Below, one piece after another: positions 23,456 to 38,630 of a DNA stretch of 64,000 bases (position 1 is the first letter of the stretch; each line of letters begins with the position of its first letter). Origin of the DNA: Candidatus Latescibacterota bacterium. Its GTDB lineage: Bacteria > Latescibacterota > UBA2968 > UBA8231. The notes below the pieces were generated by a model that was not told where the DNA came from, ran no database searches, and worked only from the letters and a program-made list of their open reading frames with translations. Position numbers and translations under genes: made by a program. Location: contig OZ241889.1 of the NCBI GenBank assembly GCA_965203355.1, forward strand, positions 1,792,001-1,856,000, read 5' to 3'.

Positions 23456-23657
23456 AGGCTGTCGGAAAACGCTGAGGGCTGTCGTTTGTATGTAGGCAGG
23501 CTCCCCCGCTGATTCCCGCGCAAGTGGGAATGCCCACTTGATAGCGATCTCGGCAACAATATGGACCGCTGGATTCCTGCGCATGTCGTGGCACGGGGCG
23601 ACTTCTTATGCGGGAATGCCCCACCCAATGCGCCCTAGGGGTTTCATACAGTTTCTA
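23453..23657. mobile_element. MITE/REP-like non-autonomous element
   Basis: Imperfect terminal inverted repeats TAGAGGCTGTCGGAAAAC / GTTTCATACAGTTTCTA; internal ATTCCC-N8-GGGAAT palindrome (23512-23531) and a second degenerate copy (~23572-23620). Confidence 0.5.
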
Positions 23658-24656
23658 AGACGGTTTCTTTGGTTTTTGCAGGCCATGTACGCGCATGCGG
23701 GAACGCAGGCGCTCTGGCTTCATGCCCAACAAGTATGCTGCGCCTTGCATTCCATAGATCACCCAATTCGTGGTTTCGAGTGCTTCTATAAGCATTTTCT
23801 TTTCGATCTCGGCGATCTGGTCCACCTTCTCGGCGATCTGGTCCACCTTGGCTACAACTCCCTGTTCAAGCATCGTAGGTGCCTTGGCTAAGTCTTCAGT
23901 TGAGATCTGCACATCCTCCAATCGTATGGAATCACTTTGGCATATAATCACCGCCCGCTGAATCAGGTGCTCTAACTCGCGCACATTCCCCGGCCAATTA
24001 TAATCCGGTCTCTGCAAATGCATTAGTACCTCTTTGCTCAGGCGCGGCGCGGGTCGCTGTAGCTCTTGGGCAAACAGGCGCGCAAAGTGTTCTGCCAAGA
24101 CCGGTATATCCTCGCGGCGTTCCCGCAAGGGCGGAATCATTACCGGGAACACGTCCAAGCGGTAGAATAGATCTTTTCGGAATGTCCCCGCTTCAGCTGC
24201 TTGTCGTAGATCTCGGTTGGTCGCGGCAATTATGCGGACATCCACTTTGATAGATGCTTCTCCGCCGACTCGAAGCAGGCGGTGGTCTTCGAGAACGTGG
24301 AGTAGCGTCGTTTGTGCCTCTAAGGGCAAGTCGCCGATTTCATCGAAAAATAGGGTACCCTTATGCGCCTGCTCAAACCGGCCGATCCGCCGCCCTACGG
24401 CACTGGTAAAGGCCCCTTTTTCATGGCCAAACAGTTCGTCTTCGACTAGTCCGGTCGGTATAGCTCCGCAATTGACCATGACAAAGGGGTTTGCTTGACG
24501 CAGGCTAAGGGTGTGGACACGCTGGGCCAACATACCCTTGCCTACTCCAGTCTCGCCTAGTATTAGGACTGTCGTAGAAGTCTGTGCTACTAGTTGGAGT
24601 TGCTCCAAGACTTTGGTCATGGCTGGGCTTTGGCTGATTATATTCTGAGAGATCAT
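23655..24656 (-). CDS. Sigma54-dependent transcriptional activator (bEBP, AAA+ and HTH) lacking an N-terminal sensor domain
   Basis: GETGVGK Walker A, ELFGHEKGAFTSA, FFDEIG Walker B, RIIAATN, WPGNVREL, C-terminal Fis-type HTH; in-frame stop just upstream of ATG. Confidence 0.92.
   Translation of the reverse strand: MISQNIISQSPAMTKVLEQLQLVAQTSTTVLILGETGVGKGMLAQRVHTLSLRQANPFVMVNCGAIPTGLVEDELFGHEKGAFTSAVGRRIGRFEQAHKGTLFFDEIGDLPLEAQTTLLHVLEDHRLLRVGGEASIKVDVRIIAATNRDLRQAAEAGTFRKDLFYRLDVFPVMIPPLRERREDIPVLAEHFARLFAQELQRPAPRLSKEVLMHLQRPDYNWPGNVRELEHLIQRAVIICQSDSIRLEDVQISTEDLAKAPTMLEQGVVAKVDQIAEKVDQIAEIEKKMLIEALETTNWVIYGMQGAAYLLGMKPERLRSRMRVHGLQKPKKPS
23807..23848. repeat. 21-bp perfect tandem duplication inside the activator gene
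   Basis: TCTCGGCGATCTGGTCCACCT x2, giving KVDQIAE-KVDQIAE. Confidence 0.9.
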
Positions 24657-24830: not shown

Positions 24831-24927
24831 TCCGATATCCATATTAAAGTAGAAAAAAATGGAAATTATCGAAGTAAAGTCATTATAAACAACAGGTTAT
24901 TAACAGAACTAATCCTAATATGACATA

Positions 24928-24944
24928 TAGGCACACTTTTTGCC
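24928..24944 (+). promoter_or_regulatory. Sigma54 -24/-12 promoter
   Basis: TAGGCACACTTTTTGCC: GG(24930-31)-N10-GC(24942-43), matches GGCAC-N5-TTGC consensus; adjacent divergent bEBP gene. Confidence 0.85.
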
Positions 24945-25022
24945 TTAGTGTTAAGTAAAGTGGGAACTGATAGGCGCAGTCCTAATTCCATTTATCCAAT
25001 CCGTAACACAGGAGGATTTATT

Positions 25023-25256
25023 ATGGAAAAGCTGCACAAACCCCAGCCCGCCTATGAGCCTAACAAGGTTCAGGCATACAATAATGAAAGGGGCCGTTGG
25101 ACGGATACTGGAGACGATATCCTCGATCTTCCCAATGGCTGCCGGAAATACATTCCGATGGAAATGTGTACGATCGTTTGGAACCCTAACAAAAACTGTG
25201 CTTCTATCGGAACGAAACGAGCGGATCCCGGAAGGGCCACTCGCACGGAATGCTAG
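25023..25256 (+). CDS. Putative RiPP precursor peptide, 77 aa, CLI_3235-like leader, 4 Cys
   Basis: Strong AGGAGG RBS (25010-15); first gene after the sigma54 promoter; MEKLHKPQPAYEPNKVQAY leader followed by core with C40, C49, C59, C77. Confidence 0.75.
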   Translation: MEKLHKPQPAYEPNKVQAYNNERGRWTDTGDDILDLPNGCRKYIPMEMCTIVWNPNKNCASIGTKRADPGRATRTEC

Positions 25257-25275
25257 TACTGCCGAGGACGCGACT

Positions 25276-25317
25276 CTTTCGTTGCTAAGAGGTTTTGACC
25301 TCTTGAGTTGGCGAAAG
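25276..25317 (+). terminator. Stem-loop after the precursor gene (attenuating or mRNA-stabilising)
   Basis: CTTTCGTTGCTAAGAGG-TTTTGA-CCTCTTGAGTTGGCGAAAG. Confidence 0.55.
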
Positions 25318-25427
25318 CCCTATTTTGTTCCCACGTTTGACCCAATGAGTAGCAATTCGGCGTATACCGAATTGCTACTCATTAGCGTTCTGACCATTTT
25401 GCATTGCTTGTGAAATTGGGGTCATAC

Positions 25428-26705
25428 ATGCAGCGATTTTTTAGTTTTCCTCTGAGTGGGCTAATAGCCGGTCTCGTGCTCATCGGCGAGGCCGGAAGTC
25501 AAGAGAACGTTTTATTTTGGCCAGCCAATCTGAAACACATTCCCAAACGATCCGTAGTCCAAGATGACCGTCGCCTGCACCTAAGGCTCGAAAAGGTTAT
25601 CCGCTTAAAGTTGGATGAACATACACCTGTCCTAGATAGTGTACTCAAAGGACAGTGGGCTCTAGGGGATAGTACCTTCTTTTTTATTTCCGGTGCGCTC
25701 TATGAATTCGACCAGACTGGTACCTATGTCCGTACCATCGGGCGGCGAGGTAAGGGACCTGGCGAATACCAAAATCCCACTCATGTCTCCGTAGATGCCG
25801 AGGGCCGTATTTACGTGGTAGCAGACCCCTTTCTCCTCCATGTATATGATAGAACAGGTCGTCATCTACATACTTATAAGGATCAGGCGGTCCGTCGTCT
25901 TTTCTTTGATACACAGGGAAACTTGGTGCAGTTGATAGAAGATTGGTTTGAAGCGCCGTCCGCTTGGAAAGATCGGTTCGCTCGGTTTATACCCGGGGTG
26001 AGGCATTCGCCTATATTTGTGGGGTTGACCAAGAGGAATCGGCAGGGGAAGCCTTTGTATCGGCTGGCTATCTCTACAGATGAGACCGTGGATGTCTTGT
26101 CCTATATGTTATCAAGGATTAGTCTCTGTTACAGTGAAACCAAGGATCGACTCTACTACGTGGAGCCGTGGGACTATAAAATCAAGGTGATTGATGCCCA
26201 TCGTGGACAGATCGTCGAACAATTTGGCCCCGAGCCGGAGTACTATCACAGCATGAGACGGGAAGTTGACTTTCCCATTTACGAGCCCCGTGATTCCGAC
26301 GAACTCTATGAGGCTAAGTTTAATGCATCGTTTACAGAGGAATTGCACCTGCTGGACGAGAAATATGTTCTGTATGTGTATCGCCCAGGCAAATCTGCCC
26401 TTGAGGGAGTTTTCGGGACGAAAAGGAAAGAGGTACGTGGGGGGGTTTGTCTGGCCTATGATATTAGCTCTGGAGACACCATCCGAGTTTTCCAGATGAT
26501 GAAGGAATCTCTTGACGACTGGCGATTGTATCATCCTGATTCCGAAGAAAGAGGGGGAATAAATACGGGTGGAACCAGAAGAGGAAGCTCTCCTACGAAT
26601 GTGATTGCTAGAGGGGAGTACTTGTACATTTATAAACCACCTCCAGAAAACATAATGGAGACTTCGAATGGCCGCGTCGAGGTTTTTACTGTCTCTGTTG
26701 AATGA
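25428..26705 (+). CDS. Exported 6-bladed (NHL-like) beta-propeller protein
   Basis: Signal peptide; FDQTGTYVRTIGRRGKGPGEYQNP, VDAEGRIYV, YDRTG motifs. Confidence 0.75.
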   Translation: MQRFFSFPLSGLIAGLVLIGEAGSQENVLFWPANLKHIPKRSVVQDDRRLHLRLEKVIRLKLDEHTPVLDSVLKGQWALGDSTFFFISGALYEFDQTGTYVRTIGRRGKGPGEYQNPTHVSVDAEGRIYVVADPFLLHVYDRTGRHLHTYKDQAVRRLFFDTQGNLVQLIEDWFEAPSAWKDRFARFIPGVRHSPIFVGLTKRNRQGKPLYRLAISTDETVDVLSYMLSRISLCYSETKDRLYYVEPWDYKIKVIDAHRGQIVEQFGPEPEYYHSMRREVDFPIYEPRDSDELYEAKFNASFTEELHLLDEKYVLYVYRPGKSALEGVFGTKRKEVRGGVCLAYDISSGDTIRVFQMMKESLDDWRLYHPDSEERGGINTGGTRRGSSPTNVIARGEYLYIYKPPPENIMETSNGRVEVFTVSVE

Positions 26706-26811: not shown

Positions 26812-27537
26812 ATGAAAGATTTTATAAAGATAAGTTCCCTAGTCGCCAATCTTTTGCTAGTGATCTTGCTGGGAATTTCTTTTGCTTGGATATATAAAGC
26901 AGAATATAGATTGTCCCACAGTTCGGGTCAATTGGCGACAGAACGCACTAGATTATATGAAGAATTTATAATTGCAACCATGATGGCAGACCGTCTTTTG
27001 GGATTGCCATTCCCTCGACTTGCTCTGGTCGATGTCTATAACAAGAATATATCAACTGATTTCTCACAAAAAGAGGGTGCCTTAATTCTCGTATTCGATC
27101 CTCAAACCTGTCAACCTTGCTTAATAGCTCAACTCAAGTTGTTGAATCATGTTTACAAACAACTTAAAAATCCAGATACATTTCCAGTCATTGCAATTGC
27201 CCCTCGCTATCACTCTCAGTTGATAAAACGATATGCTTTGAAATACGAATTGCAATATACAATAATAGCTGATAAAAAAGATCAAATCTTCAATGATAAC
27301 AATGAAGTACTTTACAAAGCAACTCCTGCCGTATATTTAGTTAATCAGAACAACACTATAATACGAAGCCATATTCCCGTATTTAGGAAACCTTATATTT
27401 CTGTTCTATTTTTTTATGAGGTACAAAATCTAATACCTCTTTCGGAGCCTATTTTTTCCTATATAGAACCTTTATTACTTATTGATGTTGTGAAAGGTGA
27501 TTTTGATCTTGAACCTATCGAGTACTTCCTCTATTGA
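26812..27537 (+). CDS. Membrane-anchored thioredoxin-fold (TlpA/AhpC-TSA-like) protein
   Basis: N-terminal TM; FDPQTCQPC CxxC; ATPAVYLVNQNNTI cis-Pro strand. Confidence 0.75.
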   Translation: MKDFIKISSLVANLLLVILLGISFAWIYKAEYRLSHSSGQLATERTRLYEEFIIATMMADRLLGLPFPRLALVDVYNKNISTDFSQKEGALILVFDPQTCQPCLIAQLKLLNHVYKQLKNPDTFPVIAIAPRYHSQLIKRYALKYELQYTIIADKKDQIFNDNNEVLYKATPAVYLVNQNNTIIRSHIPVFRKPYISVLFFYEVQNLIPLSEPIFSYIEPLLLIDVVKGDFDLEPIEYFLY

Positions 27538-27550
27538 TTTAGAGTCTCTA

Positions 27551-29293
27551 ATGATCTATATAAACAAAAAAACAGCGAGTCGTTTTTTAGCTTTTATCAG
27601 ACCTTATTGGTTTCTACAAAGTGTAGCCTTTATTCTTGCTATATTAAGTACGGCTAGTTTATTAGTCTCTCCTTATATAACAAAGATCATAATAGATGAA
27701 GTACTTCCCAATAGAGACTTATTTTTTCTCAATATAATGCTGGTCATCCTTGTGGGCAGTATTCTCTTTCAATTGGTCATCTCATTTTTTGGCGAATATA
27801 TTTATGCTTGGATTAGTAATAATATCACTTTGGACATGCAGCAGACTCTTTTTCGTCATATGCTGAATTTCTCTTTAACCTTTTATAATCAAAATAAGAA
27901 AGGAGATATTATATATAGGATCGAAGAAGATATAGAAAATATTCAAGATTTTCTTATTACGGGTATAGTCAGGTTTATACATGATGTATTGAAAATAACA
28001 TTTATCATAATCATGCTTTGCTGGCTAAGTTTTGAGTTTTTTTTATGTTCAATCAGTATTATTCCTTTATACATCATTAGTTTGATTTATTTTAGACCGA
28101 AAATAAAAAATATTACAGAGCGTGTCCGTGAAAAACAATCTGATATATTTTCCTTTTTAGTAGAGAGATTCCACAATATTCAACTAATTCAGACGTATAA
28201 CACATACACATACGAGAGTAAAAAATTACGCAAAAATCAGACTGAATTGGTAAACCTGAGTATGAAAAGCACTGTCTATTCCGCTGCAGCGAGTACCGTT
28301 GTGAATAGCATTGTGGGTTTAACGCCAGTGTTTTTCTTAGGCTGGGGCGGTTATCAAATCATAGAAGGAAATCTAACCCTGGGAACTCTAATCGCCTTCA
28401 TGCAATACCTGTCGTTTCTATTTTCTCCAATTAATGACCTAAACAGTCTTTATTTTCAAGCTGTACGAGCATCGGTGTCCATGAATCACTTGATGGAATT
28501 TCTGGAACTGCCTACTCAGCTCAATCTAAATGGTATTGGTGCCGGCTCTGCTTCTTTCTCTTTTGAACGGAAAATAGTGTTTAACGGTATCCATTTTTCC
28601 TACGATGGAGAATCAGTTTTACAAGACTTGAATATGGAACTTATAAAAGGAAAAAAATATGCTATAGTAGGTGCTAGTGGTTGTGGCAAGACTACTCTGG
28701 TCTATCTTTTATGTAGGTTCTATCAGCCTAGTAGGGGAGCTATCTTTATAGATGACACGAACCTTGAAAATATAAATCTTTTTGATATGAGAAAACACGT
28801 TGGATTGGTGACACAAAATAATCAAGTCTTCAACGATACAGTATGGGACAATATACAATATGGAAACATAGAAAGCACTCTCAGCGAAGTTGAGATAGCA
28901 GCTAAGACACTGGATTTGGATAATTATACAGATCGAGATAATCCTGTATTCACCAGATATATTGGTGAGCAAGGAGCACAATTATCTGGTGGTCAAAGAC
29001 AGCGAGTTGCTATTGCTCGAGCTGTACTAAAGGATATAGAAATTATGATCCTGGATGAAGCAACTTCGGCATTAGATTCCAAAGGTGAGCAGATAATTTT
29101 TGCCAAACTAAAAAAGCTGTATAAAGATAAAACCATAATCCTAATTAGCCACCGACTAGCCACGGTCCAAAATGCGGATGAAATCATTTGCTTAGAAAAA
29201 GGAAGAATTGTAGAACAGGGAAACCATGGCGATCTTCTGCGAAAAAAGAGATATTATTGGCAACTCTTTAAAGATCAACTGGAGGAACGTTGA
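27551..29293 (+). CDS. ABC exporter (TMD+NBD fusion, no C39 peptidase domain)
   Basis: TM helices; GASGCGKT Walker A, LSGGQRQR, ILDEATSALD, ISHRL. Confidence 0.93.
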   Translation: MIYINKKTASRFLAFIRPYWFLQSVAFILAILSTASLLVSPYITKIIIDEVLPNRDLFFLNIMLVILVGSILFQLVISFFGEYIYAWISNNITLDMQQTLFRHMLNFSLTFYNQNKKGDIIYRIEEDIENIQDFLITGIVRFIHDVLKITFIIIMLCWLSFEFFLCSISIIPLYIISLIYFRPKIKNITERVREKQSDIFSFLVERFHNIQLIQTYNTYTYESKKLRKNQTELVNLSMKSTVYSAAASTVVNSIVGLTPVFFLGWGGYQIIEGNLTLGTLIAFMQYLSFLFSPINDLNSLYFQAVRASVSMNHLMEFLELPTQLNLNGIGAGSASFSFERKIVFNGIHFSYDGESVLQDLNMELIKGKKYAIVGASGCGKTTLVYLLCRFYQPSRGAIFIDDTNLENINLFDMRKHVGLVTQNNQVFNDTVWDNIQYGNIESTLSEVEIAAKTLDLDNYTDRDNPVFTRYIGEQGAQLSGGQRQRVAIARAVLKDIEIMILDEATSALDSKGEQIIFAKLKKLYKDKTIILISHRLATVQNADEIICLEKGRIVEQGNHGDLLRKKRYYWQLFKDQLEER

Positions 29294-29436: not shown

Positions 29437-29440
29437 CCGT

Positions 29441-29908
29441 ATGAAGCAACGGCTGTTTATCACCGGCCTTGTGCTCTGGGCCGGGGTGCTGGCGGGAAGC
29501 GTGTACGCCCTCTGGTCTTATGCAGATCGCTTGCTGTCCGGTGTGCCGCTGGGCGGCTTTGAAGATGCGGCTGTTCACCGACTCAATCCGCTGGAGGCTA
29601 AGCGGAGTTTCGACCGTGGCGCGGCCGTTTTTGTCGATGTGCGATCGGCTTTTGCTTACGAGGCCGGGCACATCCTCGGTGCCTTGCACCTACCTTCCCA
29701 TGTTTCTACGGCTCACTTACGCGAAGTGCTGGCGTCTTATCCGGCGGATATCCGAGTTATCACCTACTGTTCGGGCGGCGGTTGCCAGAGCAGTCGTACG
29801 CTGGCGAAGCGACTCGTCGAAGAGTCCGTCCGCGATGAAGTCTATGTCCTGACCGGCGGCTGGCCCGCTTGGCAAGCGGCCGGGGTGGGCGAGGAGGCTG
29901 GCTCGTGA
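29441..29908 (+). CDS. Membrane-anchored rhodanese-like domain protein
   Basis: N-terminal TM; FVDVRS, YEAGHILGA, ITYCSGGGC, LTGGWPAW. Confidence 0.85.
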   Translation: MKQRLFITGLVLWAGVLAGSVYALWSYADRLLSGVPLGGFEDAAVHRLNPLEAKRSFDRGAAVFVDVRSAFAYEAGHILGALHLPSHVSTAHLREVLASYPADIRVITYCSGGGCQSSRTLAKRLVEESVRDEVYVLTGGWPAWQAAGVGEEAGS

Positions 29909-31851
29909 GCTTTCCTTTTGCGGACCAGACCGGCCGTGGCGTCAAGGTCGCAGTAGTCGATAGCGGCATCGTCCCCGATCACCCCAAGGTAGGGCCCGTG
30001 GCTGGCGGGGTTGGGCTTGCTATGGGGCCAGACGGCACCATCCGCTATAGCGACGACCACGTTGATGGCGCCGGGCATGGCACGGCCTGCGCTGGCATCA
30101 TTCGCCGCAAAGCACCGGAGGCCGAGCTATACAGTGTGCGCATCTTCGACGAGTCGCTCCAAGCCGATAGCCGCTTGCTGATTGCGGCCATTGAATGGGC
30201 CTTGGCTCAAGGCATGGACCTTATCAACCTGAGCTTGGGCACGACGGAGGTGACATACCGCGACGCTTTGGAACGGATGTGTCGGCAGGCTGCTGACCAA
30301 GGCGTCCTGTTGATAGCTGCCGAGCATGAAGAAGGCCGGGAGAGCTATCCAGCCCATTTGCCCCCAGTCATTGGCGTGGGCGCGGGCAAAGTGCGAGGTC
30401 TCTATGCGTATCACTATCGCCGAGGGGAGACCATTGAGTGTATTGCTCGGGGTGACTCCCAACGCCTATGCTGGCTGGAGCCGCCTGAGATTATGACGGC
30501 TGGCACCAGCTTTGCCGCGCCTCACCTGACCGGCTTAGTCGCTCTAATCCGCGAGGCGCATCCCAAGGCCGACTTGGAATCAGTGCGTCAACTCCTGCAC
30601 CTTCACGCCCCTCCTACTGCTCGCTCCGTGCCCAAATCCATTGTCCCATCCGAGGCCGAGGAGTCATTCGCTTGGATCCAGAAAGCCGCGCTCTATCCCT
30701 ACAACAAGGAAATGCACGCCCTAATGCGCGGGCGCGATCTGCTCGGCTTTGAGATCGTTGGCATCGGTGATCCCATCGGCAAGGGCCTGACCGGCCAAGA
30801 CGCCGGTCAGGCCCTTGGCCTACCCCCGGTGGGCTTTCAAGTTGCGCCGCGATTGGCTGTGGCCCTGCAAGGGGCTGATACCCTCATTTTGGGATATGTA
30901 GATGAACTGGGTCGCATCCGCAAAAAGGACGTTTTGCGCGAAGCCGTGCAACTGGCACTGGATCAAGGCGTTCACGTCTTCAGCCTGCTGGCCCTGCCCC
31001 GCGAGGGCTACGCCGATTTGTACGAACAGGCCGCGGCCAAGGGCCTGCGCCTGTACTATCCGGCGTTGTCGGCCAAAGACGCGCAGCAGACCCTCGCCTC
31101 GGCCGGGGAGTATCCCCAAGTGGATGTGCCAGTTGTGGCGGTCTTGGGTACCAGTTCACAGCAGGGCAAGTTCACGCTGCAACTGGCCTTGCGTCGCCGC
31201 CTGCTGGAACGGGGCTACCGAGTCGGACAACTCGGCACCGAGCACCACGCCGCGCTGTTCGGCATGGACTGCGCTTTCCCGATGGGCTACGCCGCATCCA
31301 TCGAGATGCCCCTGGATTATTACGCTCCCTACTTAGACGCCAAGATGCGCCAAATCAATCAACGCAAGTGCCCGCATATAATCTTGGTCGGCAGCCAATC
31401 GGGCACCGTGCCGTACAACGTAAGCGAACCCACAACCCACACTCTGTCCACCGTCGCCTTCCTAATGGGGGTCAAGCCAGACGCCTGCCTACTGGTGGTC
31501 AACAGTATAGATACCGACGACTACATTCAGGACACCATAGACGGCATCCGAGCGATGTGCCACGCACCGACCCTGCTGTTGGCCATGAGCGATAAGGAAA
31601 AGCACGTGCGGGAGGCGTATGGGCGCACCGCTATAAAACCCCGACCCATGCGCACAGAAGACCGCCGCCGCAAGTTGCGCCACTTGGAACAGACGTTTAA
31701 GCGGCCGGCCCTATCCATCGCCTCCCAAGCCGATGTCCACAAGGCTGTCGAGGTGGTGATTGACTATTTCGCCGAGAACGAGAATAAGGTACTTGGTAAC
31801 GAAGGGGTCTCAGGTGTGAAACACCCTCGCGCCAGGGCGGTGGCTGGATAG
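29905..31851 (+). CDS. S8 (subtilisin-like) protease fused to a TIGR04066/DUF1611-like P-loop domain
   Basis: GTG start with GAGGAGG RBS overlapping rhodanese stop; triad VDSG/HGTACAG/GTSFAAP; C-terminal LYPYNKE...VPVVAVLGTSSQQGKFTLQLAL...GYRVGQLGTE. Confidence 0.8.
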   Translation: MSFPFADQTGRGVKVAVVDSGIVPDHPKVGPVAGGVGLAMGPDGTIRYSDDHVDGAGHGTACAGIIRRKAPEAELYSVRIFDESLQADSRLLIAAIEWALAQGMDLINLSLGTTEVTYRDALERMCRQAADQGVLLIAAEHEEGRESYPAHLPPVIGVGAGKVRGLYAYHYRRGETIECIARGDSQRLCWLEPPEIMTAGTSFAAPHLTGLVALIREAHPKADLESVRQLLHLHAPPTARSVPKSIVPSEAEESFAWIQKAALYPYNKEMHALMRGRDLLGFEIVGIGDPIGKGLTGQDAGQALGLPPVGFQVAPRLAVALQGADTLILGYVDELGRIRKKDVLREAVQLALDQGVHVFSLLALPREGYADLYEQAAAKGLRLYYPALSAKDAQQTLASAGEYPQVDVPVVAVLGTSSQQGKFTLQLALRRRLLERGYRVGQLGTEHHAALFGMDCAFPMGYAASIEMPLDYYAPYLDAKMRQINQRKCPHIILVGSQSGTVPYNVSEPTTHTLSTVAFLMGVKPDACLLVVNSIDTDDYIQDTIDGIRAMCHAPTLLLAMSDKEKHVREAYGRTAIKPRPMRTEDRRRKLRHLEQTFKRPALSIASQADVHKAVEVVIDYFAENENKVLGNEGVSGVKHPRARAVAG

Positions 31852-31998: not shown

Positions 31999-32262
31999 AT
32001 GCACGATCCAATAACCCGCCGAGTGAAACAGGCTCTCGTCCAAGCCCTTGGGCTCGACGTCAATCCAGACGAAATAGACGACAACGAGCCGCTGTTCGGA
32101 GAGGGCTTGGGGGCCGATTCCATCGCCTCGTTGGAAATCGTCTTTGCCCTGGAAGAAGAGTTTGGCTTTGAGGTGGAGGACGAAGATTTGCAGGTAGAAC
32201 TGTTCGATTCAGTGCGGACGCTGAGCCAGTATGTCGCTGGAAAGACAGTGGTTCGTGGTTAG
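31999..32262 (+). CDS. Acyl carrier protein
   Basis: 87 aa, acidic; LGADSIASLEIVFALEEEFG with phosphopantetheine Ser; GAGG RBS. Confidence 0.9.
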   Translation: MHDPITRRVKQALVQALGLDVNPDEIDDNEPLFGEGLGADSIASLEIVFALEEEFGFEVEDEDLQVELFDSVRTLSQYVAGKTVVRG

Positions 32263-32320: not shown

Positions 32321-32986
32321 ATGCCACCGAAGCATTCAGTCATCGTCGGTCTCGCGCCCCATTGCAACAACGCTGGCATCGCCTCTTGTTGCGACCCGAC
32401 GGCCTATGGACTCGATGGGATGGGCACAATCTTTTGCGCTGACCATCTTCCGGCCTTGGGAACAACGGTCGTTTGTAATGGAACGCGGTTTGTCTTGCCC
32501 GATAAAAGCGACGGGACGCCCGACAATATCGCCTGCGAGGGGCAAGACATGCCGCTGCCGGTAGGGCGTTATCGCGCCCTGCACGTTCTTGGGATGTGCG
32601 ACTGGCGCGCCTTTGAAGAGCCACTGCGGCTGATGGCAACTGATGGCACCGGCACGGAAACGAGCCTCGGACTCAGCGACGCCTCGCACTACCAAGGGCT
32701 ACACTACGGTGAACGCGAGGCCCTAACGTGCCCGTTGGTCACCCCTGATAGCCTCATTCCCCACGTATTCCTCTTTGGCATCACCCCACCGGGCGCGGAC
32801 GCAGACTATGAGATGACACAGACGCAGATTGAGGCTGGGATTTGGCATCAGGTGATTTCCGTGGAACCATCCCGACCGCTTGCGGGACTCGTACTGCCAG
32901 ACAATCCGTCCATGCACCTATTCGCCTTGACCTTGGAAGTACTCGCGGAACGCAGTGCTCTTGCCCGCGAAAGCCACTCCACTTGA
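32321..32986 (+). CDS. Hypothetical protein, beta-sandwich/jelly-roll-like domain
   Basis: GTRFVLP...DNIACEGQDMPLPVGRYRALHVLG...DGT...LSD...LPDNPSMHLFALTL resembles accessory domains of glycoside hydrolases; GGAG RBS. Confidence 0.6.
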   Translation: MPPKHSVIVGLAPHCNNAGIASCCDPTAYGLDGMGTIFCADHLPALGTTVVCNGTRFVLPDKSDGTPDNIACEGQDMPLPVGRYRALHVLGMCDWRAFEEPLRLMATDGTGTETSLGLSDASHYQGLHYGEREALTCPLVTPDSLIPHVFLFGITPPGADADYEMTQTQIEAGIWHQVISVEPSRPLAGLVLPDNPSMHLFALTLEVLAERSALARESHST

Positions 32987-33018
32987 AGGCGCAACGCTCT
33001 CGTTCTCAGAGGCTTGCT

Positions 33019-34020
33019 ATGAAAAAACACATTGAAGGCGTTCCCTTTTGCACCTATCGACACTACAACTGCGTCTATGTGGTGTTGGATAGCCTGTTGC
33101 GCTTCTACGAATGCGAACCCTCGGTGCCCTGTTTTGCCCAGTGGGATTTTATCTATTGCCGAGAGCAAGGCGAGCGGTTCACTATGCAGGGACGGATCGT
33201 GCCCCTGCCCGAGACGCTCAAAGCCTTTGGCATTGCGCTGTTCAATCGCAGCGCGCATGATGGGCAAAGCGCGTGGGATAAAGTGAAAAAGCGAATAGAT
33301 GCAGATATTCCGGTGGCCATCAGCTTAGACGTATTTCCGCTGGCTCAAGCCGGTTTCTTTCCGCGTCTGCGCCATGCAGACCATCAGTATATCGCCGCCG
33401 GGTACGACGACGGGGCCGCTACTGTCCACGTAGTCGATCCTTCGCCGTGGCAGCCTTCGGCGCGGAGTATCCCGCTCGAATTATTCCTCGCCAGTTGGGA
33501 TATGAGCGCGATTGTTGGGGAGGACGAGGACCGATACAACTGGTTTTGGCTAGAGGTGCCGAGGCGAGGGCTGGTCCTGCGAGCGGAAGCCGCGCGCACC
33601 CTCCTGCAGCGCAACCTGCGCAGCATGTCCGCGTCCAGCGACCAAGCGAATCTCGCCGTGGGATTGAAGGGCGTCGAGCAACTCGCCGAGGATAGCGGGG
33701 CTTGGGCCGAGTACGAAGAGCCGTTTCTCAAAGAACGCCTAAGACGGTGCGCCGAGTTGCTCTTGGAAGTTGCCTTGCTCCGCGAAGGACATGGGCGCTT
33801 TCTTCGCCATGTCGCTGAGGTTTGCCAACAGCCGCGTCTCAAGGAGCTCAGCCGAGAACTTGAGTCCATTTCTCAAGGCTGGTTTGTGGTGAAGAATTTG
33901 TGCTTCAAAGGAACAGTCAGGGACGCGAAAAATGTGCTGCCGCGCATCCAGTCTCGGCTTTGTGCCCTCGCAAAACAGGAACGGAATGCCTTGGCAACCT
34001 TGGCGGAAATCGTCGGTTGA
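33019..34020 (+). CDS. BtrH N-terminal domain (papain/NlpC-P60-like) putative ACP-dependent acyltransferase
   Basis: N-terminal YNC catalytic Cys, IPVAISLDVFPL, HADHQYIAAGYDD His, VHVVDP Asp; helical C-terminal domain. Confidence 0.7.
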   Translation: MKKHIEGVPFCTYRHYNCVYVVLDSLLRFYECEPSVPCFAQWDFIYCREQGERFTMQGRIVPLPETLKAFGIALFNRSAHDGQSAWDKVKKRIDADIPVAISLDVFPLAQAGFFPRLRHADHQYIAAGYDDGAATVHVVDPSPWQPSARSIPLELFLASWDMSAIVGEDEDRYNWFWLEVPRRGLVLRAEAARTLLQRNLRSMSASSDQANLAVGLKGVEQLAEDSGAWAEYEEPFLKERLRRCAELLLEVALLREGHGRFLRHVAEVCQQPRLKELSRELESISQGWFVVKNLCFKGTVRDAKNVLPRIQSRLCALAKQERNALATLAEIVG

Positions 34021-34105: not shown

Positions 34106-35287
34106 ATGTGGTCAATCGCCAGATTTCTACTCCCGATTCTTATACTCTTGCTCGTCGCAGGGGTATTTGTACTATCACAGGACGTTTTTCATTTTGTCTC
34201 AGAAGGCGTCAGTGAGGATATGGGGAGAGCCGACGTCCAAGAAACAGTAGCCTTCAGGCCACTTGAAACCCCCGTAGAGGTGATACGATTAAAAAAACAA
34301 TCGCTAGTGGAGAGCATTTCGACCAATGGTCGGACTAAAGCCTTACTCAAAACAAAAATCACATCTCAAGTGTCAGGAAGCGTTACCGAATTGAGGGTGG
34401 GAGAAGGCGAATTTGTTAAAAAAGATTCGGTGCTCTTAGAAATCGAAGACGAATCCTTCAGAATTGCTTATCTGCAAGCAAAAGACAGGTTGAATAACCT
34501 CCTCAATGAATACGCTCTCATGATATTGCTGAACAGGCAAACAGTATCAGACCGAATCGATATAAGCACCAGTACTAACATAGATACATCAAATATAAAC
34601 GATAGAGAATCAGCGGCTCTGCTGTCGGTACATTCTCGTAAAGAGCGGATTGCCAGCATGATAGGGTTGACGAAAGCTAGGCTGGATCTGAGAAAGGCAG
34701 AGTTGGATCTTGAAAATACCATGGTTCGTGCCCCCTTTGACGGCTTTGTCTCCGGCGTAGCAACATCACAGGGCAGTATAGTTCACCAGACAGATCAACT
34801 GATGTGGTTGGTTTCTCTAGATAGTTTGGTCGTTGAGGTAGGCATCTTGGAAACCGAGCTACGGTTGATTCGCAAAGGTACCGAAGCCGAGATAGAATTA
34901 GCCGCTTTTCCGGGCGAACAGATCAAGGGGACAGTCAGGGCGATAAGTCCAATTATAGAAGAAAAGAGTGGTACTTGTAATATCCAGGTAGAGATTGCCA
35001 ACCCAACCCGGGAAATCCGCCCCGGTATGTTTGCTCGTGTAACTGTTAGCCACGGAGAATTTCGTAGTCGCCTTCTGATTCCCCGAGACGCTCTTTTACT
35101 TCGAGATGATAGAAAGGTCGCATTCGTATATGAACAGGGAGTAGCACGTTGGCGCTATATCAAGACTGGTCTAGAGAACGATCTCTTTATCGAAGTCACT
35201 GAGGGCTTGAGCGAAGGAGAAGATTTGATCGTGTCTGGGCACTTCAATCTTGCTCACGAAGCCAAAGTCTTGTTGGTGGAGAAATGA
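34106..35287 (+). CDS. RND efflux periplasmic adaptor (MFP)
   Basis: N-terminal TM; SQVSGSV...EGEFVKK lipoyl halves; VRAPFDG; RPGMFARV; GLSEGE. Confidence 0.92.
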   Translation: MWSIARFLLPILILLLVAGVFVLSQDVFHFVSEGVSEDMGRADVQETVAFRPLETPVEVIRLKKQSLVESISTNGRTKALLKTKITSQVSGSVTELRVGEGEFVKKDSVLLEIEDESFRIAYLQAKDRLNNLLNEYALMILLNRQTVSDRIDISTSTNIDTSNINDRESAALLSVHSRKERIASMIGLTKARLDLRKAELDLENTMVRAPFDGFVSGVATSQGSIVHQTDQLMWLVSLDSLVVEVGILETELRLIRKGTEAEIELAAFPGEQIKGTVRAISPIIEEKSGTCNIQVEIANPTREIRPGMFARVTVSHGEFRSRLLIPRDALLLRDDRKVAFVYEQGVARWRYIKTGLENDLFIEVTEGLSEGEDLIVSGHFNLAHEAKVLLVEK

Positions 35288-35333
35288 AGACGGAAAGTCT
35301 TTTTCCGCTTTATTGAATGAACGAATAAGCGGG

Positions 35334-38300
35334 ATGCATATAACTGAAGTTGCAGTTCAGCGGCCCGTAGCCACTACGGTGTTCTTTATAGCAATGGTCA
35401 TGCTGGGAGTGTATTCTTTCCATCGGCTGAGCGTCGATTTCTTGCCCAGTATCAGCGTACCCAACCTACTAGTCAGAACCGAATGTCCTGGACTAAACGC
35501 ACAAGATATAGAGAAAAATGTCACCGAATGGATCGAGTCTGCGTTGAGTACAGTACAGGATGTGAATCGCATAGAATCGGTTTCGCGTGATGGCCTCTCG
35601 CTCATCCACGTCGATTTTGGCTGGGGCAGTAATATGAACATAGCGTTTATCAATGTGCGAAACAGACTGGATAGAATACAGGAGAACTTACCTGAATTCG
35701 TCGAGCGCTCAGTCATATTGAGCTTTGATCCATCCTCAACACCTATTATGACTTTGGTGGTTACGGGTGATCGCGTAGAAAATCCCACAACGGCCAAAAG
35801 CTACGAGAATGCCTTAGCAGAGCTAAAAGAGGTTTCTGAAACAGTCATTAAACGCCGTCTGGAACAATTGGATGGAGTGGCTTATGCTCTGGTATCGGGG
35901 GGGTTAGAGCGAGAAATTCAGGTGATTTTAGATTCGGAGAAAATGCTAACTTACCAGATCGGTTTCGCTGAGGTGGAGCAGGCCTTGAAACAGTTCAATG
36001 TGCAGTCGCTAGGCGGTACCATCCGCGACAGGCACTACCAATTCCCTCTCCGCATTGAAGCCTCATATAATAAGGTGGACGAGATCTACAAGACGCCTAT
36101 CCGGTCCACGCTACGGGAACAGACTATTCGCTTGCAAGACATTGCCCGTATAGAGGATTCCTACAAAAAACGGACTGGTTATGTTCGCTTGAACGGCAAA
36201 GAAGTGATAACTTTGTTTCTATTTAAGGAAGCTGGTGCTAATACGGTTAAAACCTCAAAAAAAATATATGAAGATCTTTATAGATTGGCCGAAGAGTACC
36301 CCGAATTTCAGGTCACAGTGGCTTTTGATCAGGCGGAGTTCATCCAAGAATCCATAGTTAACGTATTACATGCTTTATACTTGGGGAGTATAGTCACATT
36401 TTTTGTGCTTTTCTTTTTTCTACAAGACTTGCGGAGTCTTGTCATTGTGGGGCTTGCTATCCCGATCTCCATTGTGACCACCTTGGTTTTCATGTACTTC
36501 TTGTCCATCAATCTCAATATAATCTCTTTGGGTGGCTTGGCATTGGGCATCGGTATATTAGTAGACAATTCCATCGTAGTGCTAGAGAATATCTATCGCT
36601 ACAGAGAAATAGGGTATCCTACTCGTCGAGCTGCGGTTGAAGGAGCCAAAGAGGTAAGTATGGCGATTACGGCCTCGACCCTTACCACCTTATCTGTCTT
36701 TATACCGTTAGTCTATGTTAAGGGTTTAGCAGGAGAACTTTTTTATAATCAATCTATTGTAATTGCGATCTCTCTAGCCGTTTCGCTCCTCGTATCTCTT
36801 ACTTTTCTACCTGTGCTAGTCATACAGATCTCCCGTTCATCTGCCAATCCTTTTACCTATTGGTCTATGCGATCTTATCTTCCCTTGCCCCTTCGTTTGC
36901 AAGGAAGGAGCTTGCCAAGTAAAGTCGGTACACTAATAGGATGGGTGCTAGAAAATGCGGTTTATACTGCAATCTATGGACTGTACAAGGGTGCTCTGAT
37001 CTACTTTTTTCGTTTGGTAGAGGTACTTATCGCGTCCTTTCAACGGCTTTTTGCCGCCTTTTTCAGAACCTATGAACTCATCCTGTCGACTGTCTTACAG
37101 TACAAGGCGGTTTCGATTTTCACCGTCCTATTGGTGTTCTATGCTAGCCTGGAGATCATGCAACAATTAGATAAAGAATTGATGCCGCTGGTAGATAGAA
37201 AGAAACTAGTTGTGAGTGCGGAATTACCCATGGGAACAAATCTGCACAACACATCTCTGAAAGTTGCACATCTGGAGAGCAAACTGCTACAACAGCAAAA
37301 AATAAAGGCGGTTCTATCTTCGGTGGGGATTACCAGCGATGTTTTAGATCGCCGGTACCATCCAAGTTTGAACAAAGCGATCTTGGATATAGAAATAGTA
37401 CAAGAGGCTAATATCTTTGAAGTTTCCCATTCCCTGAAGGAGATATTCGCGGATTTCACCGATATAAAGTTGGAGATCAAGAGGCGGGAATCTGTTTTTG
37501 AACAACTATTCCAACAGCGACCGGACGTATTTGACATTGAATTGGTTGGGCCGGAATTGGAAGTTCTTGATTCTTTAAGTCGGCAAATCGTAGATTTTAT
37601 GAGACAATCAGATGGTTTTGAAAATGCGGTTTCTAATTTAAAAATAGCTGAACGAGAATACCGGCTAGAGATAAAACGGAGCGTCTTGATCCGCTATGGC
37701 ATAGAGATCTCGGAACTGGTCGCATTCCTCAAGCAGCGAATTAAGGGCAGTATACCTACCCAATTCATTGACTTCTCCGATAAGATCGACATACGACTTT
37801 TGGCCGACGACCGCACGGAGATAGAGCTATATGACTTGCTAAAGCTACAGTTTCCTGTTCAAAAAATCGACGAGACCTCCTATGTGCCCCTAACCGATCT
37901 GGTGACTCTGGAGCCCCAAGCTGGATTTGAGGCGATCCACCGCAGAGATCAAAATCGAACCGTCCTCATTACAGCTATCCTTAATGGACTCGACTTCTCT
38001 GAGGCGACAGCCCACCTTGAAAACTATTTGCGTACTATGCAGATACCCAGCGGATATTGGTTTGAGATCGGTACATTCAGAGGAAATACAAGAGCCGAAT
38101 TTGAAAATCTACTGCTCATCCTAGTGATTTCAATAGCTCTTATCTATTTCATTCTTTCAGCTCAGTTTGAGTCTATCAGAGTGCCTTTAATCATACTCAT
38201 GGCGATCCCGTTGTCGCTCGTTGGAGTTGTGTTCACTTTGTGGGTGAGCGGCAATACCCTGAATGTCATGTCGCTATTGGGTGGAATCGTGCTGGTGGGT

Positions 38301-38618: not shown

Positions 38619-38630
38619 AGATGCTGAAGT

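What the first reader, a model, noticed from the sequence alone, without database searches (positions are those of the whole stretch)
25023..25317. 77-aa precursor with CLI_3235-type leader but an atypical long, Cys-sparse core
Seen: MEKLHKPQPAYEPNKVQAY | NNERGRWTDTGDDILDLPNGCRKYIPMEMCTIVWNPNKNCASIGTKRADPGRATRTEC; ideal RBS; stem-loop right after the stop, as is common after highly expressed precursor genes. Known (from recall): CLI_3235 precursors start MKKLxK and end the leader in T/S-V/I-E-A-Y/F before a Cys-dense core; subtilisins favour Tyr at P1. Inference: cleavage at or near VQAY releases a roughly 58-aa core with four spaced Cys including the C-terminal residue (two disulfides), unlike thioether-crosslinked cores. 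Gene callers would likely mis-start it at 24948.
Basis: partly seen in the sequence, partly recalled or inferred. Interest (0 to 1): 0.82.

Follow-up and report, generated by a model that had tools for sequence, protein, structure and literature searches.

The report
Precursor peptide with CLI_3235-like leader
This small gene very probably encodes a secreted-peptide precursor whose short front "address tag" recurs beside one conserved protease-fusion gene in several bacterial phyla, while the rest of the peptide differs completely from case to case.

Summary
The 77-aa ORF (25023..25256, +) exists as described, with an AGGAGG ribosome site. It is a real gene. It has a 68%-identical homologue that keeps all four Cys and lies on a contig of the same length (6,942 bp) as one carrying a 76%-identical copy of the neighbouring propeller. 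A ~96-97% relative shows only 3 listed changes in the ORF, against 18 plus an indel in 170 nt upstream.

The leader claim holds in substance but not as family membership. The TIGR04065 model never matches. A leader of the form M-x-K-L-x-K…[VIL]-x-[AL]-Y recurs in 16 small ORFs within 7 kb of full-length S8-DUF1611 genes, in 12 of 16 such places, and in none of 63 S8-only loci. This leader profile aligns end to end with the leaders of true TIGR04065 peptides (hhalign P 1.9e-5; 0 of 300 shuffles).

The long, Cys-sparse core is normal for this branch, where cores run 19-123 aa with 0-11 Cys. The window has no radical-SAM gene. A membrane redoxin, a rhodanese and a variable β-propeller accompany the Cys-bearing cores.

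Cleavage after Tyr19 and two disulfides remain inferences. The finding is a new variant of a known, poorly studied kind.

The parts
23655..24656 (-). Sigma-54-dependent activator (AAA+ domain plus HTH, no N-terminal sensor domain), transcribed divergently from the peptide gene
   Evidence: Pfam Sigma54_activat E 1.4e-66, AAA_lid_14, HTH_8. NCBIfam NifA/NorR-type hits are all below cut-off. A 39%-identical homologue heads the L002 cluster.
24930..24943 (+). Sigma-54-type -24/-12 element GGCAC-N5-TTGC, about 80 nt before the ATG
   Evidence: 3 matches in 64 kb against 0.75 expected; 5 of 100 shuffles reach 3. This is the only one in an intergenic spacer beside a sigma-54 activator. No listed difference falls inside it in the ~96% relative, while 24944-24946 all differ. 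No sigma-70-like site was found in 24600-25500.
25010..25015 (+). Ribosome-binding site AGGAGG
   Evidence: All 12 leader-ORFs examined have a GGAG/GAGG/AGGA-type site 5-10 nt before the ATG.
25023..25079 (+). Leader, residues 1-19 (MEKLHKPQPAYEPNKVQAY)
   Evidence: L4, K6 and Y19 are invariant in 12 leaders. HMM hits. hhalign to TIGR04065 leaders.
25080..25256 (+). Core, residues 20-77 (58 aa; Cys 40, 49, 59, 77; Trp 26, 54) plus stop codon
   Evidence: W26 and C40 are invariant across the five propeller-associated peptides.
25276..25317 (+). First hairpin after the stop, followed by CCCTATTTTGTT
   Evidence: Not significant on its own (z -1.2).
25344..25383 (+). Perfect 17-bp hairpin with a 6-nt loop
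   Evidence: In the ~96% relative the contigs end at 25290 and 25403 with loose ends that do not fit this window, so the window's sequence for this spacer is not seen in them.
25428..26705 (+). Six-bladed NHL/DUF5128-type beta-propeller with an N-terminal hydrophobic signal or anchor; highly variable between loci
   Evidence: Pfam DUF5128 E 7.7e-11. Only one close homologue, P0006 (76%), on a contig of the same length (6,942 bp) as that of P0002. 25-29% identical to the propellers of L001-L003. Model pLDDT 65.6. Best structural match is the Bacteroides exported protein 4raa, then NHL domains.
26812..27537 (+). Membrane-anchored thioredoxin-fold protein (AhpC/TSA-Redoxin, ResA-like) with a CQPC motif
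   Evidence: Homologues in L001, L002, L003 and L013. L002 also reads CQPC.
27497..29293 (+). ABC exporter (fused permease and ATPase) without a peptidase domain
   Evidence: ABC_membrane plus ABC_tran only. 38-44% homologues in the same position in L001-L003 and L013.
29441..29908 (+). Membrane-anchored rhodanese
   Evidence: Pfam Rhodanese E 1.1e-17. 46-61% homologues directly before S8-DUF1611 in L001-L003.
29869..31851 (+). S8 subtilase fused to a DUF1611/TIGR04066-like P-loop domain; candidate leader peptidase
   Evidence: S8 half: QhpE model E 2.9e-44, 151 bits against cut-off 165. C-terminal half: TIGR04066 E 4.2e-31, 108 bits against cut-off 200, covering model positions 2-359 of 361. 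D19, H58 and S202 are invariant (I read them as the S8 catalytic triad), as is the GTSSQQGKF loop, in 16 homologues. 430 homologues with E<=1e-10 among 8,000 scored candidates. Co-fold with the peptide: weak support, 0.38 against 0.02.
31999..32262 (+). Acyl carrier protein (GADS motif)
   Evidence: Generic ACP models, best E 5e-17 and below cut-off; no TIGR04069 hit at E<=0.01. An ACP homologue follows S8-DUF1611 directly in 10 of 15 full-length loci (L001-L004, L006, L007, L009-L011, L014) and lies 4 kb away in L008.
32321..32986 (+). 221-aa protein of no known family
   Evidence: No Pfam or NCBIfam hit. A 63% homologue sits in the same position in L001 only.
32842..34020 (+). BtrH_N/DUF4872 (C39-like fold) protein; probable start is ATG 33019
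   Evidence: Homologues in L001, L002 and at the edge of L008.
34106..42050 (+). RND efflux set: adaptor 34106-35287 and two RND pumps, 35250-38618 and 38631-42050
   Evidence: adaptor; same order in L001 and L002.

Best explanation
The ORF is a genuine ribosomal precursor peptide. It belongs to a leader-defined family that serves the S8-subtilase/TIGR04066-like (DUF1611) + ACP + ABC-exporter maturation system. That system is the Gram-negative (mostly Candidatus Latescibacterota) counterpart of the Firmicute CLI_3235 system.

Shown here:
- The gene is conserved and under constraint.
- Its first 19 residues belong to a leader family found almost only beside full-length S8-DUF1611 genes, on the same strand.
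- That leader family resembles the TIGR04065 leader in a profile-profile comparison.
- The window holds no radical-SAM enzyme.

Inferred pathway:
1. The gene is transcribed from a sigma-54 promoter under the divergent activator.
2. The hydrophilic leader is bound by the cytoplasmic S8-DUF1611 protein and cut at or just after Tyr19, where conservation stops.
3. The DUF1611 P-loop domain and the ACP carry out a further, still unknown step.
4. The 58-aa core leaves through the peptidase-less ABC exporter.
5. In the periplasm the membrane-anchored CQPC redoxin and the rhodanese handle its four Cys, most simply as two disulfides.
6. The fast-evolving propeller, which varies together with the core, binds or processes the core.
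7. The RND set moves the product outward.
For: Real gene:
- P0002 is 68% identical, with all 4 Cys kept.
- The propeller homologue P0006 (76%) lies on a contig of the same length, 6,942 bp.
- A ~96-97% relative shows 3 listed changes in 234 nt (1 conservative, 2 synonymous by my reading), against 18 plus 1 indel in 170 nt upstream and 50 in 1,348 nt of the propeller.
- A strong RBS is present.

Leader family:
- The first HMM, built from 9 leaders, gave 11 ORFs (12 rows) at E<1e-3 among 21,546 frames. Two of them (L005, L017) were not in the training set. The best hit in the 63 S8-only loci was E 4.7.
- After adding L001, L003, L010 and L011, 15 ORFs score E<=5e-4 in the 22,227 frames; the sixteenth peptide, P0002, is a protein record that was in the training set but not among the frames. 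The next hit is at E 0.76.
- 12 of 16 places with a full-length S8-DUF1611 gene carry such an ORF 0.2-6.6 kb away on the same strand.
- In five whole genomes (about 29 Mb) the profile found 8 hits at E<0.01. Seven of them are these cluster ORFs.

Link to CLI_3235:
- hhalign Prob 77.5%, P 1.9e-5; 0 of 300 column shuffles reach the real score.
- The C-terminal half of the enzyme covers the whole TIGR04066 model.
- Passages of PMC10731318 and PMC4573289 list the Firmicute system as precursor + rSAM TIGR04068 + TIGR04066 + ACP-related TIGR04069 + subtilase + ABC.

Leader peptidase:
- The invariant D19, H58 and S202, which I read as the S8 catalytic triad.
- The nearest curated S8 model is QhpE. 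That QhpE is a leader peptidase is my recall.
- Co-fold: weak support, score 0.38 (runs 0.41, 0.36, 0.38) against a best control of 0.02. Partner pLDDT is at least 38 and the runs agree in at least 25% of contacts. In the tool's calibration the mark was reached by 58 of 80 solved complexes and 2 of 110 mismatched pairs. At 0.60 or under it was reached by only 7 of those 80 and by both mismatches.

Redox module:
- Redoxin, rhodanese and propeller co-occur in the window, L001, L002 and L003. Their cores hold 2-4 Cys.
- Four loci with neither the redox module nor an rSAM (L004, L005, L006, L011) have Cys-free cores.

Promoter.
Against: - No curated model recognises the peptide.
- Neither the TIGR04065 HMM nor a leader-only HMM built from TIGR04065 members finds it. 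The iterated leader HMM does not find TIGR04065 members. The kinship therefore rests on one profile-profile score over 19 columns.
- I first picked the leader set with a pattern that already demanded M, [KR]P and [AS][YF]. This is a partial circularity.
- Four of the 16 full-length places (L007, L009, L014, L015) show no leader ORF.
- One leader ORF in G305 lies about 69 kb from the enzyme gene.
- The L001 and L011 peptides scored only E 7.8 and E 54 before they were added to the model.
- The enzyme scores below both curated cut-offs, and the ACP does not match TIGR04069.
- L008 has Cys-bearing cores without a redox module.
- The redox/Cys correlation comes from a handful of related loci.
- Cleavage site, disulfides, and the roles of DUF1611, the ACP and the propeller are untested.
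- The first hairpin is unremarkable.
Confidence: 0.7

Rival explanations
1. It is a true sactipeptide- or ranthipeptide-type precursor. Its Cys are cross-linked by a radical-SAM/SPASM maturase encoded elsewhere in the 4.17-Mb genome, as in classical CLI_3235 systems.
For: L002, a homologous Latescibacterota cluster, carries an rSAM/SPASM gene between the sigma-54 activator and the propeller: SCIFF-type model E 2.5e-73, CcpM E 4e-44, all below cut-off. rSAM genes also flank the enzyme in L010 and L015-L017. The window's genome is not held, so distant genes could not be searched. A paralogous S8-DUF1611, P0048, lies elsewhere on the same contig.
Against: There is no rSAM homologue in the 64-kb window, nor in L001, L003-L009 or L011 within their flanks. 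The core has only 4 Cys in 58 residues. A dedicated periplasmic redoxin and rhodanese are present instead. Several sister loci have Cys-free cores, so Cys cross-linking cannot be the system's common chemistry.
Confidence: 0.1
2. The conserved N-terminus is a recognition or export tag that is not removed at Tyr19. Alternatively, the S8 domain acts elsewhere. The product would then be a small secreted protein rather than a leader-cleaved peptide.
For: Nothing here shows cleavage. The segment VQAYNNERGRWTDTGDDI, which spans the proposed cut, resembles a repeated strand-turn-strand unit of beta-propeller repeat proteins: P0003 has 11 stretches (E 2.6e-6) and P0004 has 5. W26 just after the cut is invariant in the propeller-associated subgroup. 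Sister cores reach 106-123 aa, which is protein-sized.
Against: Conservation across 15 leaders stops exactly at [AL]-Y, as in TIGR04065, where the Cys-rich core starts 0-4 residues later. An active-site-competent subtilase is fused to the conserved partner. The repeat-protein hits are sums of many weak matches.
Confidence: 0.12
3. The peptide belongs functionally to the adjacent DUF5128 propeller (for example a ligand/receptor or toxin/immunity pair). The S8-DUF1611 block is an unrelated neighbour.
For: The peptide and propeller homologues come from contigs of equal length (6,942 bp), which I read as one contig. The propeller is as variable as the peptide: 25-29% identity between loci, against 59-74% for S8-DUF1611. 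The peptide gene sits beside a propeller gene in the window, L001, L002 and L003. G+C differs between the two blocks in the window.
Against: The same leader occurs in L004-L006, L008, L010, L011, L016 and L017, which have no propeller homologue at E<=1e-5 but do have S8-DUF1611. The full gene order from propeller to RND is conserved in L001 and L002, where G+C is even.
Confidence: 0.06
4. It is a chance ORF with no product.
For: No family model matches. The protein atlas gave no usable hit. No RNA run is on record.
Against: There is a homologue with conserved Cys. Synonymous-biased variation is set against a fast-changing upstream spacer. An RBS is present. The leader is shared by 16 ORFs. No Rfam family reaches its threshold here.
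Confidence: 0.02

Closest known systems
CLI_3235 peptide system of Firmicutes: precursor TIGR04065, radical-SAM maturase TIGR04068 (CcpM), TIGR04066 protein, ACP-related TIGR04069, subtilase, ABC transporter
   Same: Leader layout is M-x-K-L-x-K … [VIL]-x-A-Y of 18-23 residues, and conservation ends at the Tyr. Partner set is a subtilase, a TIGR04066-type domain, a small carrier protein and an ABC exporter.
   Different: The peptide fails the TIGR04065 model. The core is 58 aa with 4 spaced Cys instead of a short Cys-dense stretch. No radical-SAM gene is in the window. The subtilase and TIGR04066 domains are fused. The ACP matches generic ACP models, not TIGR04069. Extra parts are a sigma-54 activator, a propeller, a redoxin, a rhodanese, a BtrH-like protein and an RND pump. 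The host is a Gram-negative candidate phylum.
Quinohemoprotein amine dehydrogenase maturation (QhpC peptide, QhpD radical-SAM, QhpE subtilisin-like leader peptidase)
   Same: The S8 half scores best against the QhpE model (E 2.9e-44). The L002 rSAM scores 228 bits on the QhpD model. The substrate is a small Cys- and Trp-containing peptide with a leader. The roles of QhpC, QhpD and QhpE are my recall.
   Different: Both scores are below cut-off (151 against 165; 228 against 453). No dehydrogenase subunits lie nearby. No rSAM is in the window. P0001 matches no model in NCBIfam, so no QhpC model if the library holds one.
Double-glycine-leader bacteriocins exported by C39-peptidase ABC transporters
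   Same: A small secreted peptide with an N-terminal non-Sec leader and a dedicated ABC exporter.
   Different: There is no GG/GA motif in the leader. The ABC protein has no peptidase domain. A separate cytoplasmic subtilase fusion is the conserved partner.
Exported six-bladed propellers of Bacteroides (DUF5128; PDB 4raa BF0058, 3s9j BVU_1028), function unknown
   Same: Pfam DUF5128 hit. These are the best structural matches of the model. An N-terminal hydrophobic signal is present.
   Different: Sequence identity is about 11-12%. Only one close homologue is known. No function is known for either side. My recollection that such Bacteroides propellers sit beside small 'NVEALA' peptides could not be checked: no paper was found and P0001 has no Pfam hit.

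Membership tests
TIGR04065 (bacteriocin, CLI_3235 family) | Scores at or above the curated cut-off (26 bits) on the 34-position model | tested here: not met
   No hit at E<=10 for P0001 or the 102-aa long form. None for seven sister peptides or P0002. None over cut-off in the three Firmicute genomes holding L015-L017. The model works as a positive control: 16 matches over cut-off in 6 of 300 scored genomes of the class of G002 (one further genome was not scored).
TIGR04065 (bacteriocin, CLI_3235 family) | Leader MKKLxK … T-[VIL]-[EQ]-A-[YF] of about 18 residues | tested here: inconclusive
   hhalign of 12 leaders of this family against 11 TIGR04065 leaders gave Prob 77.5%, P 1.9e-5; 0 of 300 shuffles reach the real score. 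HMM searches fail in both directions.
TIGR04065 (bacteriocin, CLI_3235 family) | Short Cys-dense core directly after the leader | tested here: not met
   The first Cys is 21 residues after Tyr19, and there are 4 Cys in 58 residues. True members have 4-7 Cys within about 16 residues.
CLI_3235-type maturation system | Radical-SAM/SPASM maturase (TIGR04068) in the cluster | tested here: not met
   tblastn of the L002 rSAM found nothing in the 64-kb window at E<=1e-4. The rest of the genome could not be searched.
CLI_3235-type maturation system | TIGR04066 protein, subtilase, carrier protein and ABC exporter beside the precursor | tested here: inconclusive
   All four functions are present. TIGR04066 scores 108 bits against cut-off 200, although it covers the whole model. 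The ACP is not recognised by TIGR04069 at E<=0.01.
Leader-defined precursor family of S8-DUF1611 clusters (no curated model; defined here) | Small ORF with an RBS and the leader M-x-K-L-x-K…[VIL]-x-[AL]-Y, on the same strand and within 7 kb of a full-length S8-DUF1611 gene | tested here: met
   P0001 is the top hit of both leader HMMs: E 9.9e-10 and E 7.3e-9. It lies 4.6 kb upstream of the enzyme gene. RBS.
Double-glycine leader / C39-ABC bacteriocins | GG-type cleavage motif and a peptidase domain on the ABC exporter | tested here: not met
   No GG motif in residues 1-25. The ABC protein has only ABC_membrane and ABC_tran domains.
QhpC / QhpE system | S8 protein over the QhpE cut-off, together with QhpD and the dehydrogenase subunits | tested here: not met
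   151 bits against cut-off 165. No rSAM in the window.

The most novel reading that the evidence does not exclude
S8-DUF1611 together with its ever-present ACP is a leader-guided peptide maturation and export platform that works without a radical-SAM enzyme. It accepts hypervariable cargo, from 19-aa Cys-rich peptides to 120-aa Cys-free acidic mini-proteins. It installs a so-far unknown ACP-dependent modification, for instance acylation of the new N-terminus after the cut. In this window the cargo is a disulfide- or sulfur-bridged 58-aa mini-protein. Its dedicated periplasmic redoxin/rhodanese pair and co-evolving beta-propeller would form a private folding-and-recognition module.
Probability: 0.15. 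Interest if true: 0.8.

Novelty: new variant of a known kind. Interest (0 to 1): 0.6.

Why it matters
In the literature I could read, the CLI_3235/TIGR04066 system appears only as genome annotation. I saw no biochemical account there of the TIGR04066 or carrier proteins (passages of PMC10731318 and PMC4573289; searches).

This window, together with its sister loci, shows three things:
- The leader, the subtilase, the TIGR04066 domain, the ACP and the ABC exporter travel together across at least three phyla, by the record titles.
- The radical-SAM enzyme is dispensable in many clusters.
- The cargo is free to vary.

This separates the conserved platform from the Cys cross-linking chemistry that gave the family its name. 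It also offers a simple test system for the unknown function of DUF1611/TIGR04066 and its ACP: one peptide, one fused enzyme and one ACP.

In addition, it gives a usable leader motif for mining precursors in Latescibacterota. These ORFs matched no curated family model in my scans.

Tried and rejected
- Curated families for the peptide: Pfam and NCBIfam found none.
- Protein atlas: no usable hit.
- Plasmid collection by tblastn: no match.
- Rfam over 24500-25600: nothing near any gathering score.
- Scans of genome contigs and metagenome contigs with leader patterns from A1: pattern matches, but no relative.
- Profile search of 1.8 billion representative proteins: only the peptide's own cluster plus two repeat proteins, P0003 and P0004, which I take as chance or convergent likeness.
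- Whole-genome search of the window's organism: no genome is held.
- RNA evidence: no RNA holder listed.
- Sigma-54-like sites upstream of sister peptides: none convincing. They are not first genes in their operons.
- AMP-ligase (21617-23455) and the 574-aa protein (19901-21625) as cluster members: rejected, with no homologues in L001-L017.
- Horizontal transfer as the reason to separate the peptide block from the S8 block: rejected as an argument. The same gene order holds in L001 and L002, where G+C is even.
- Downstream hairpins as a family feature: clear only in L001, L011, L016 and the window's second hairpin; 9 of 13 80-nt tails are unremarkable.
- Propeller fold search: generic NHL/propeller matches, no enzyme assignment.
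- Haft and Basu 2011 (PMC3133131): not held. What I say of it is recall.
- Literature on DUF1611 with RiPP, and on NVEALA, DUF5128 and DUF4221: no papers.
- The L017 peptide was scanned from a start three codons too late. It gave no hit and I did not repeat the scan. The genome-wide TIGR04065 search of that genome covers the point.
Full report
**1. What is there**

AGGAGG lies 7 nt before the ATG. The peptide is hydrophilic at its N-terminus, so it has no Sec-type signal. It has Cys at 40, 49, 59 and 77.

After the stop there are two hairpins:
Folded alone it is not beyond chance (z -1.2; 26 of 200 shuffles fold as well).
- A perfect 17-bp hairpin at 25344-25383 is unique in the window. It drives the z -5.4 of the 161-nt tail.

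The simple terminator and sigma-70 promoter scans found nothing in 24600-25500. No Rfam family reaches its threshold.

**2. It is a real gene**

- Homologue. Among 5.8 billion clustered proteins there is one homologue, P0002 (79 aa, 68% identical), from a 6,942-bp contig. It keeps the leader almost letter for letter, the ERGRW-DTGDD segment, all four Cys and the C-terminal RADPGRATR.
- Synteny. The propeller gene that follows the peptide has one close homologue, P0006 (76%), on a contig of the same length. I read this as conserved synteny.
- Exhaustive search. A profile search of 1.8 billion representative proteins added only two repeat proteins.
- Constraint. Contigs of two runs from one study, about 96-97% alike, were laid on 24650-26750. 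Inside the ORF, 3 differences are listed. By my codon reading they are L34I and synonymous changes in G39 and C59. The 170 nt upstream carry 18 substitutions and an insertion. The propeller carries 50 differences in 1,348 nt. One of the 22 differences of the upstream record is not listed, so its place is unknown.
- Start codon. The database already holds the 77-aa form, so the predicted mis-start at 24948 did not happen there.

**3. Regulation**

A 333-aa sigma-54 activator (AAA+ plus HTH, no sensor domain) is transcribed divergently at 23655-24656.

GGCAC-N5-TTGC lies at 24930-24943, about 80 nt before the ATG. It is one of 3 matches in the window, against 0.75 expected; 5 of 100 shuffles reach 3. 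In the ~96% relative no listed difference falls inside it, while the three bases right after it all differ. A start at GTG 24948 would sit at the transcript's very beginning.

**4. The cluster**

Downstream, all on the + strand, lie:
- a DUF5128/NHL-type propeller;
- a membrane-anchored thioredoxin-fold protein with CQPC;
- an ABC exporter without a peptidase domain;
- a membrane-anchored rhodanese;
- an S8 subtilase fused to a DUF1611 domain;
- an ACP;
- a 221-aa unknown protein;
- a BtrH_N/DUF4872 protein;
- an RND adaptor and two RND pumps.

The S8 half scores best on QhpE (151 bits, cut-off 165). The DUF1611 half covers the whole TIGR04066 model (108 bits, cut-off 200). The invariant D19, H58 and S202 (which I read as the S8 triad) and the P-loop are kept in 16 homologues.

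The fusion is a large family: 430 hits at E<=1e-10 among 8,000 scored candidates. The closest species-level genomes are Candidatus Latescibacterota, followed by KSB1, Rosettibacter, Minicystis and Lachnospiraceae-type Firmicutes. A 73% paralogue lies elsewhere on the same 4.17-Mb contig.

tblastn of the window's proteins against the 17 best loci shows that the order propeller, redoxin, ABC, rhodanese, S8-DUF1611, ACP, (221-aa), BtrH-like, adaptor, RND, RND is conserved in L001 and L002, and in part in L003 and L013. An ACP directly follows the fusion in 10 of 15 full-length loci.

The window has no radical-SAM homologue. L002, L010 and L015-L017 do have one. The L002 enzyme is a SPASM thioether-type maturase that scores below all cut-offs.

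**5. The leader**

*Finding the leader ORFs.* A loose pattern taken from P0001 picked out small same-strand ORFs in L002, L004, L006, L008 (three in tandem) and L016.

An HMM of these nine leaders then scored 21,546 stop-to-stop frames of the window and L001-L080:
- 11 ORFs reached E<1e-3, all beside full-length S8-DUF1611 genes.
- Two of them (L005, L017) were not in the training set.
- The best hit in the 63 loci that hold only an S8 domain was E 4.7.

Further candidates came from L001 and L011 (weak at first, E 7.8 and E 54) and from L003 and L010. The L001 ORF lies in the true spacer between two propeller genes. The overlapping 528-aa frame has a junk-like N-terminus, and the propeller starts at 1572.

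*The rebuilt model.* With 15 leaders, all 15 ORFs in the searched frames score E<=5e-4, the next hit is at E 0.76, and nothing new appears. P0002, a protein record, was in the training set and makes the sixteenth peptide.

*Tally.* 12 of 16 places with a full-length fusion gene carry such an ORF 0.2-6.6 kb away. L007, L009, L014 and L015 do not. All 12 starts checked have a Shine-Dalgarno site.

*Genome-wide check.* In five whole Latescibacterota genomes (about 29 Mb) the profile gave 8 hits at E<0.01. Seven are these cluster ORFs. The eighth is a leader ORF about 69 kb from the fusion gene, with an ABC homologue nearby.

**6. Relation to CLI_3235**

The TIGR04065 model (34 positions, cut-off 26 bits) matches none of these peptides. 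It does find 16 peptides in 6 of 300 scored genomes of the class of G002.

Those peptides read MKKLGKK…T[VLI][EQ]A[YF] followed at once by a Cys-dense core.

- A leader-only HMM built from them does not find the window's family, and the reverse search also fails.
- Profile against profile, however, the two leader sets align over 19 columns end to end: Prob 77.5%, P 1.9e-5.
- In my re-run the score was 18.4. Over 300 column shuffles the mean was 5.8, the sd 1.5 and the maximum 11.
- My initial pattern already required M, [KR]P and [AS][YF], so part of this likeness was selected for. L4, K3 and the [VIL] at -3 were not selected for.

Passages of two papers list the Firmicute system as precursor, rSAM TIGR04068, TIGR04066, ACP-related TIGR04069, subtilase and ABC transporter (PMC10731318, PMC4573289). 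I saw only those passages. The founding paper (Haft and Basu 2011) is not held.

My reading is that this is a sister branch of that system. It has the same platform but a different, unmodelled precursor family.

**7. The core**

Cores after the [AL]-Y differ widely:

| Locus | Core length (aa) | Cys |
|---|---|---|
| L016 | 19 | 2 |
| L017 | 29 | 5 |
| Window, P0002, L001-L003 | 49-58 | 2-4 |
| L008 (three, hydrophobic) | 49-53 | 4 |
| L004-L006, L011 (acidic) | 106-123 | 0 |
| L010 | 111 | 11 |

The window's long, Cys-sparse core is therefore ordinary for this branch. The five propeller-associated peptides share W26 and C40 besides the leader.

Redoxin, rhodanese and propeller occur together with Cys-bearing cores in 4 of 4 such loci. 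Four loci without either these genes or an rSAM (L004, L005, L006, L011) have Cys-free cores. L008 is an exception. This suggests periplasmic Cys chemistry, most simply two disulfides. The sample is small and the loci are related.

**8. Other tests**

*Co-fold.* Folding the peptide (5-row alignment) with the fusion protein (16 rows) gave weak support:
- Score 0.38 (runs 0.41, 0.36, 0.38); best of 3 controls 0.02.
- Partner pLDDT at least 38; at least 25% of contacts shared between runs.
- In the calibration the mark was reached by 58 of 80 solved complexes and 2 of 110 mismatched pairs.
- At 0.60 or under it was reached by only 7 of those 80 and by both mismatches that passed.
- No interface was given.

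*Propeller model.* The model (pLDDT 65.6) matches a Bacteroides exported protein of unknown function (4raa) and NHL domains. This gives the fold but no function.

**9. Verdict**

It is wrong on family membership and on the core being exceptional. Cleavage after Tyr19, disulfides, and the roles of the DUF1611 domain, the ACP and the propeller are inferences. This is a new variant of a known but barely studied kind of peptide system.

Noticed in passing
window 23600-42200: G+C is a mosaic within one co-directional, architecturally conserved cluster. Redoxin and ABC are 35%, the RND set 43-46% and the propeller 48%. Rhodanese through BtrH-like are 55-62%, and the window as a whole is 55.6%. The same genes in L001 (42-60%) and L002 (45-54%) show no such drop at redoxin/ABC or the RND set. 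This suggests that single modules here were replaced by lower-G+C xenologues without changing the gene order.
   Followed up: partly
window 25068-25127 (peptide residues 16-35); P0003, P0004: VQAYNNERGRWTDTGDDILD resembles a repeat unit (V-x-V-Y-K-N-E-S-G-V-W-T-Q-I-G-D-D-I) found 11 times in a 938-aa repeat protein and 5 times in a 423-aa one. This produced the only other hits of the exhaustive profile search (E 2.6e-6 and 1e-4). It may be chance, or it may be a shared strand-turn-strand unit spanning the proposed cleavage site.
   Followed up: no
L008 3415-4415: Three tandem leader-bearing ORFs (71-75 aa) have very hydrophobic cores. Each has 4 Cys and ends in GYI. No redoxin, rhodanese, propeller or rSAM homologue was found within the locus.
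   Followed up: no
L004 7206-7589; L005 184-615; L006 7324-7716; L011 8799-9191; L096 8010-8468: These leader-bearing ORFs have 106-133-aa cores. The first four are acidic and Cys-free; the L096 one holds Cys. L004 and L005 share a C-terminal G-[DE]-V-E-Y-D-x-x-G-R-K-L-I-H. The L011 core ends in a second VQAY motif. The L096 copy lies about 69 kb from the S8-DUF1611 gene of its genome.
   Followed up: partly
L002 1796-3403: One Latescibacterota sister cluster keeps a radical-SAM/SPASM maturase (535 aa; best models SCIFF, Nif11, PapB and QhpD types, all below cut-off) between the sigma-54 activator and the propeller. The window and most sister loci have none.
   Followed up: partly
window 32321-32986: A 221-aa protein without any family hit, with a Cys-rich N-terminal part. 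It is conserved (63%) in the same position only in L001.
   Followed up: no
L001 1412-1491; L011 9192-9271; L016 9788-9867: Strong hairpins directly follow three sister precursor genes (z -4.7, -5.0 and -3.6; 0 of 200 shuffles fold as well), as with the window's second hairpin. The other nine tails tested are unremarkable.
   Followed up: yes
elsewhere on the window's 4.17-Mb contig (not in the window): A second S8-DUF1611 gene (P0048) is 73% identical to the window's copy and 84% to that of L001. This implies a second cluster of this kind in the same genome. Its neighbourhood could not be read.
   Followed up: no
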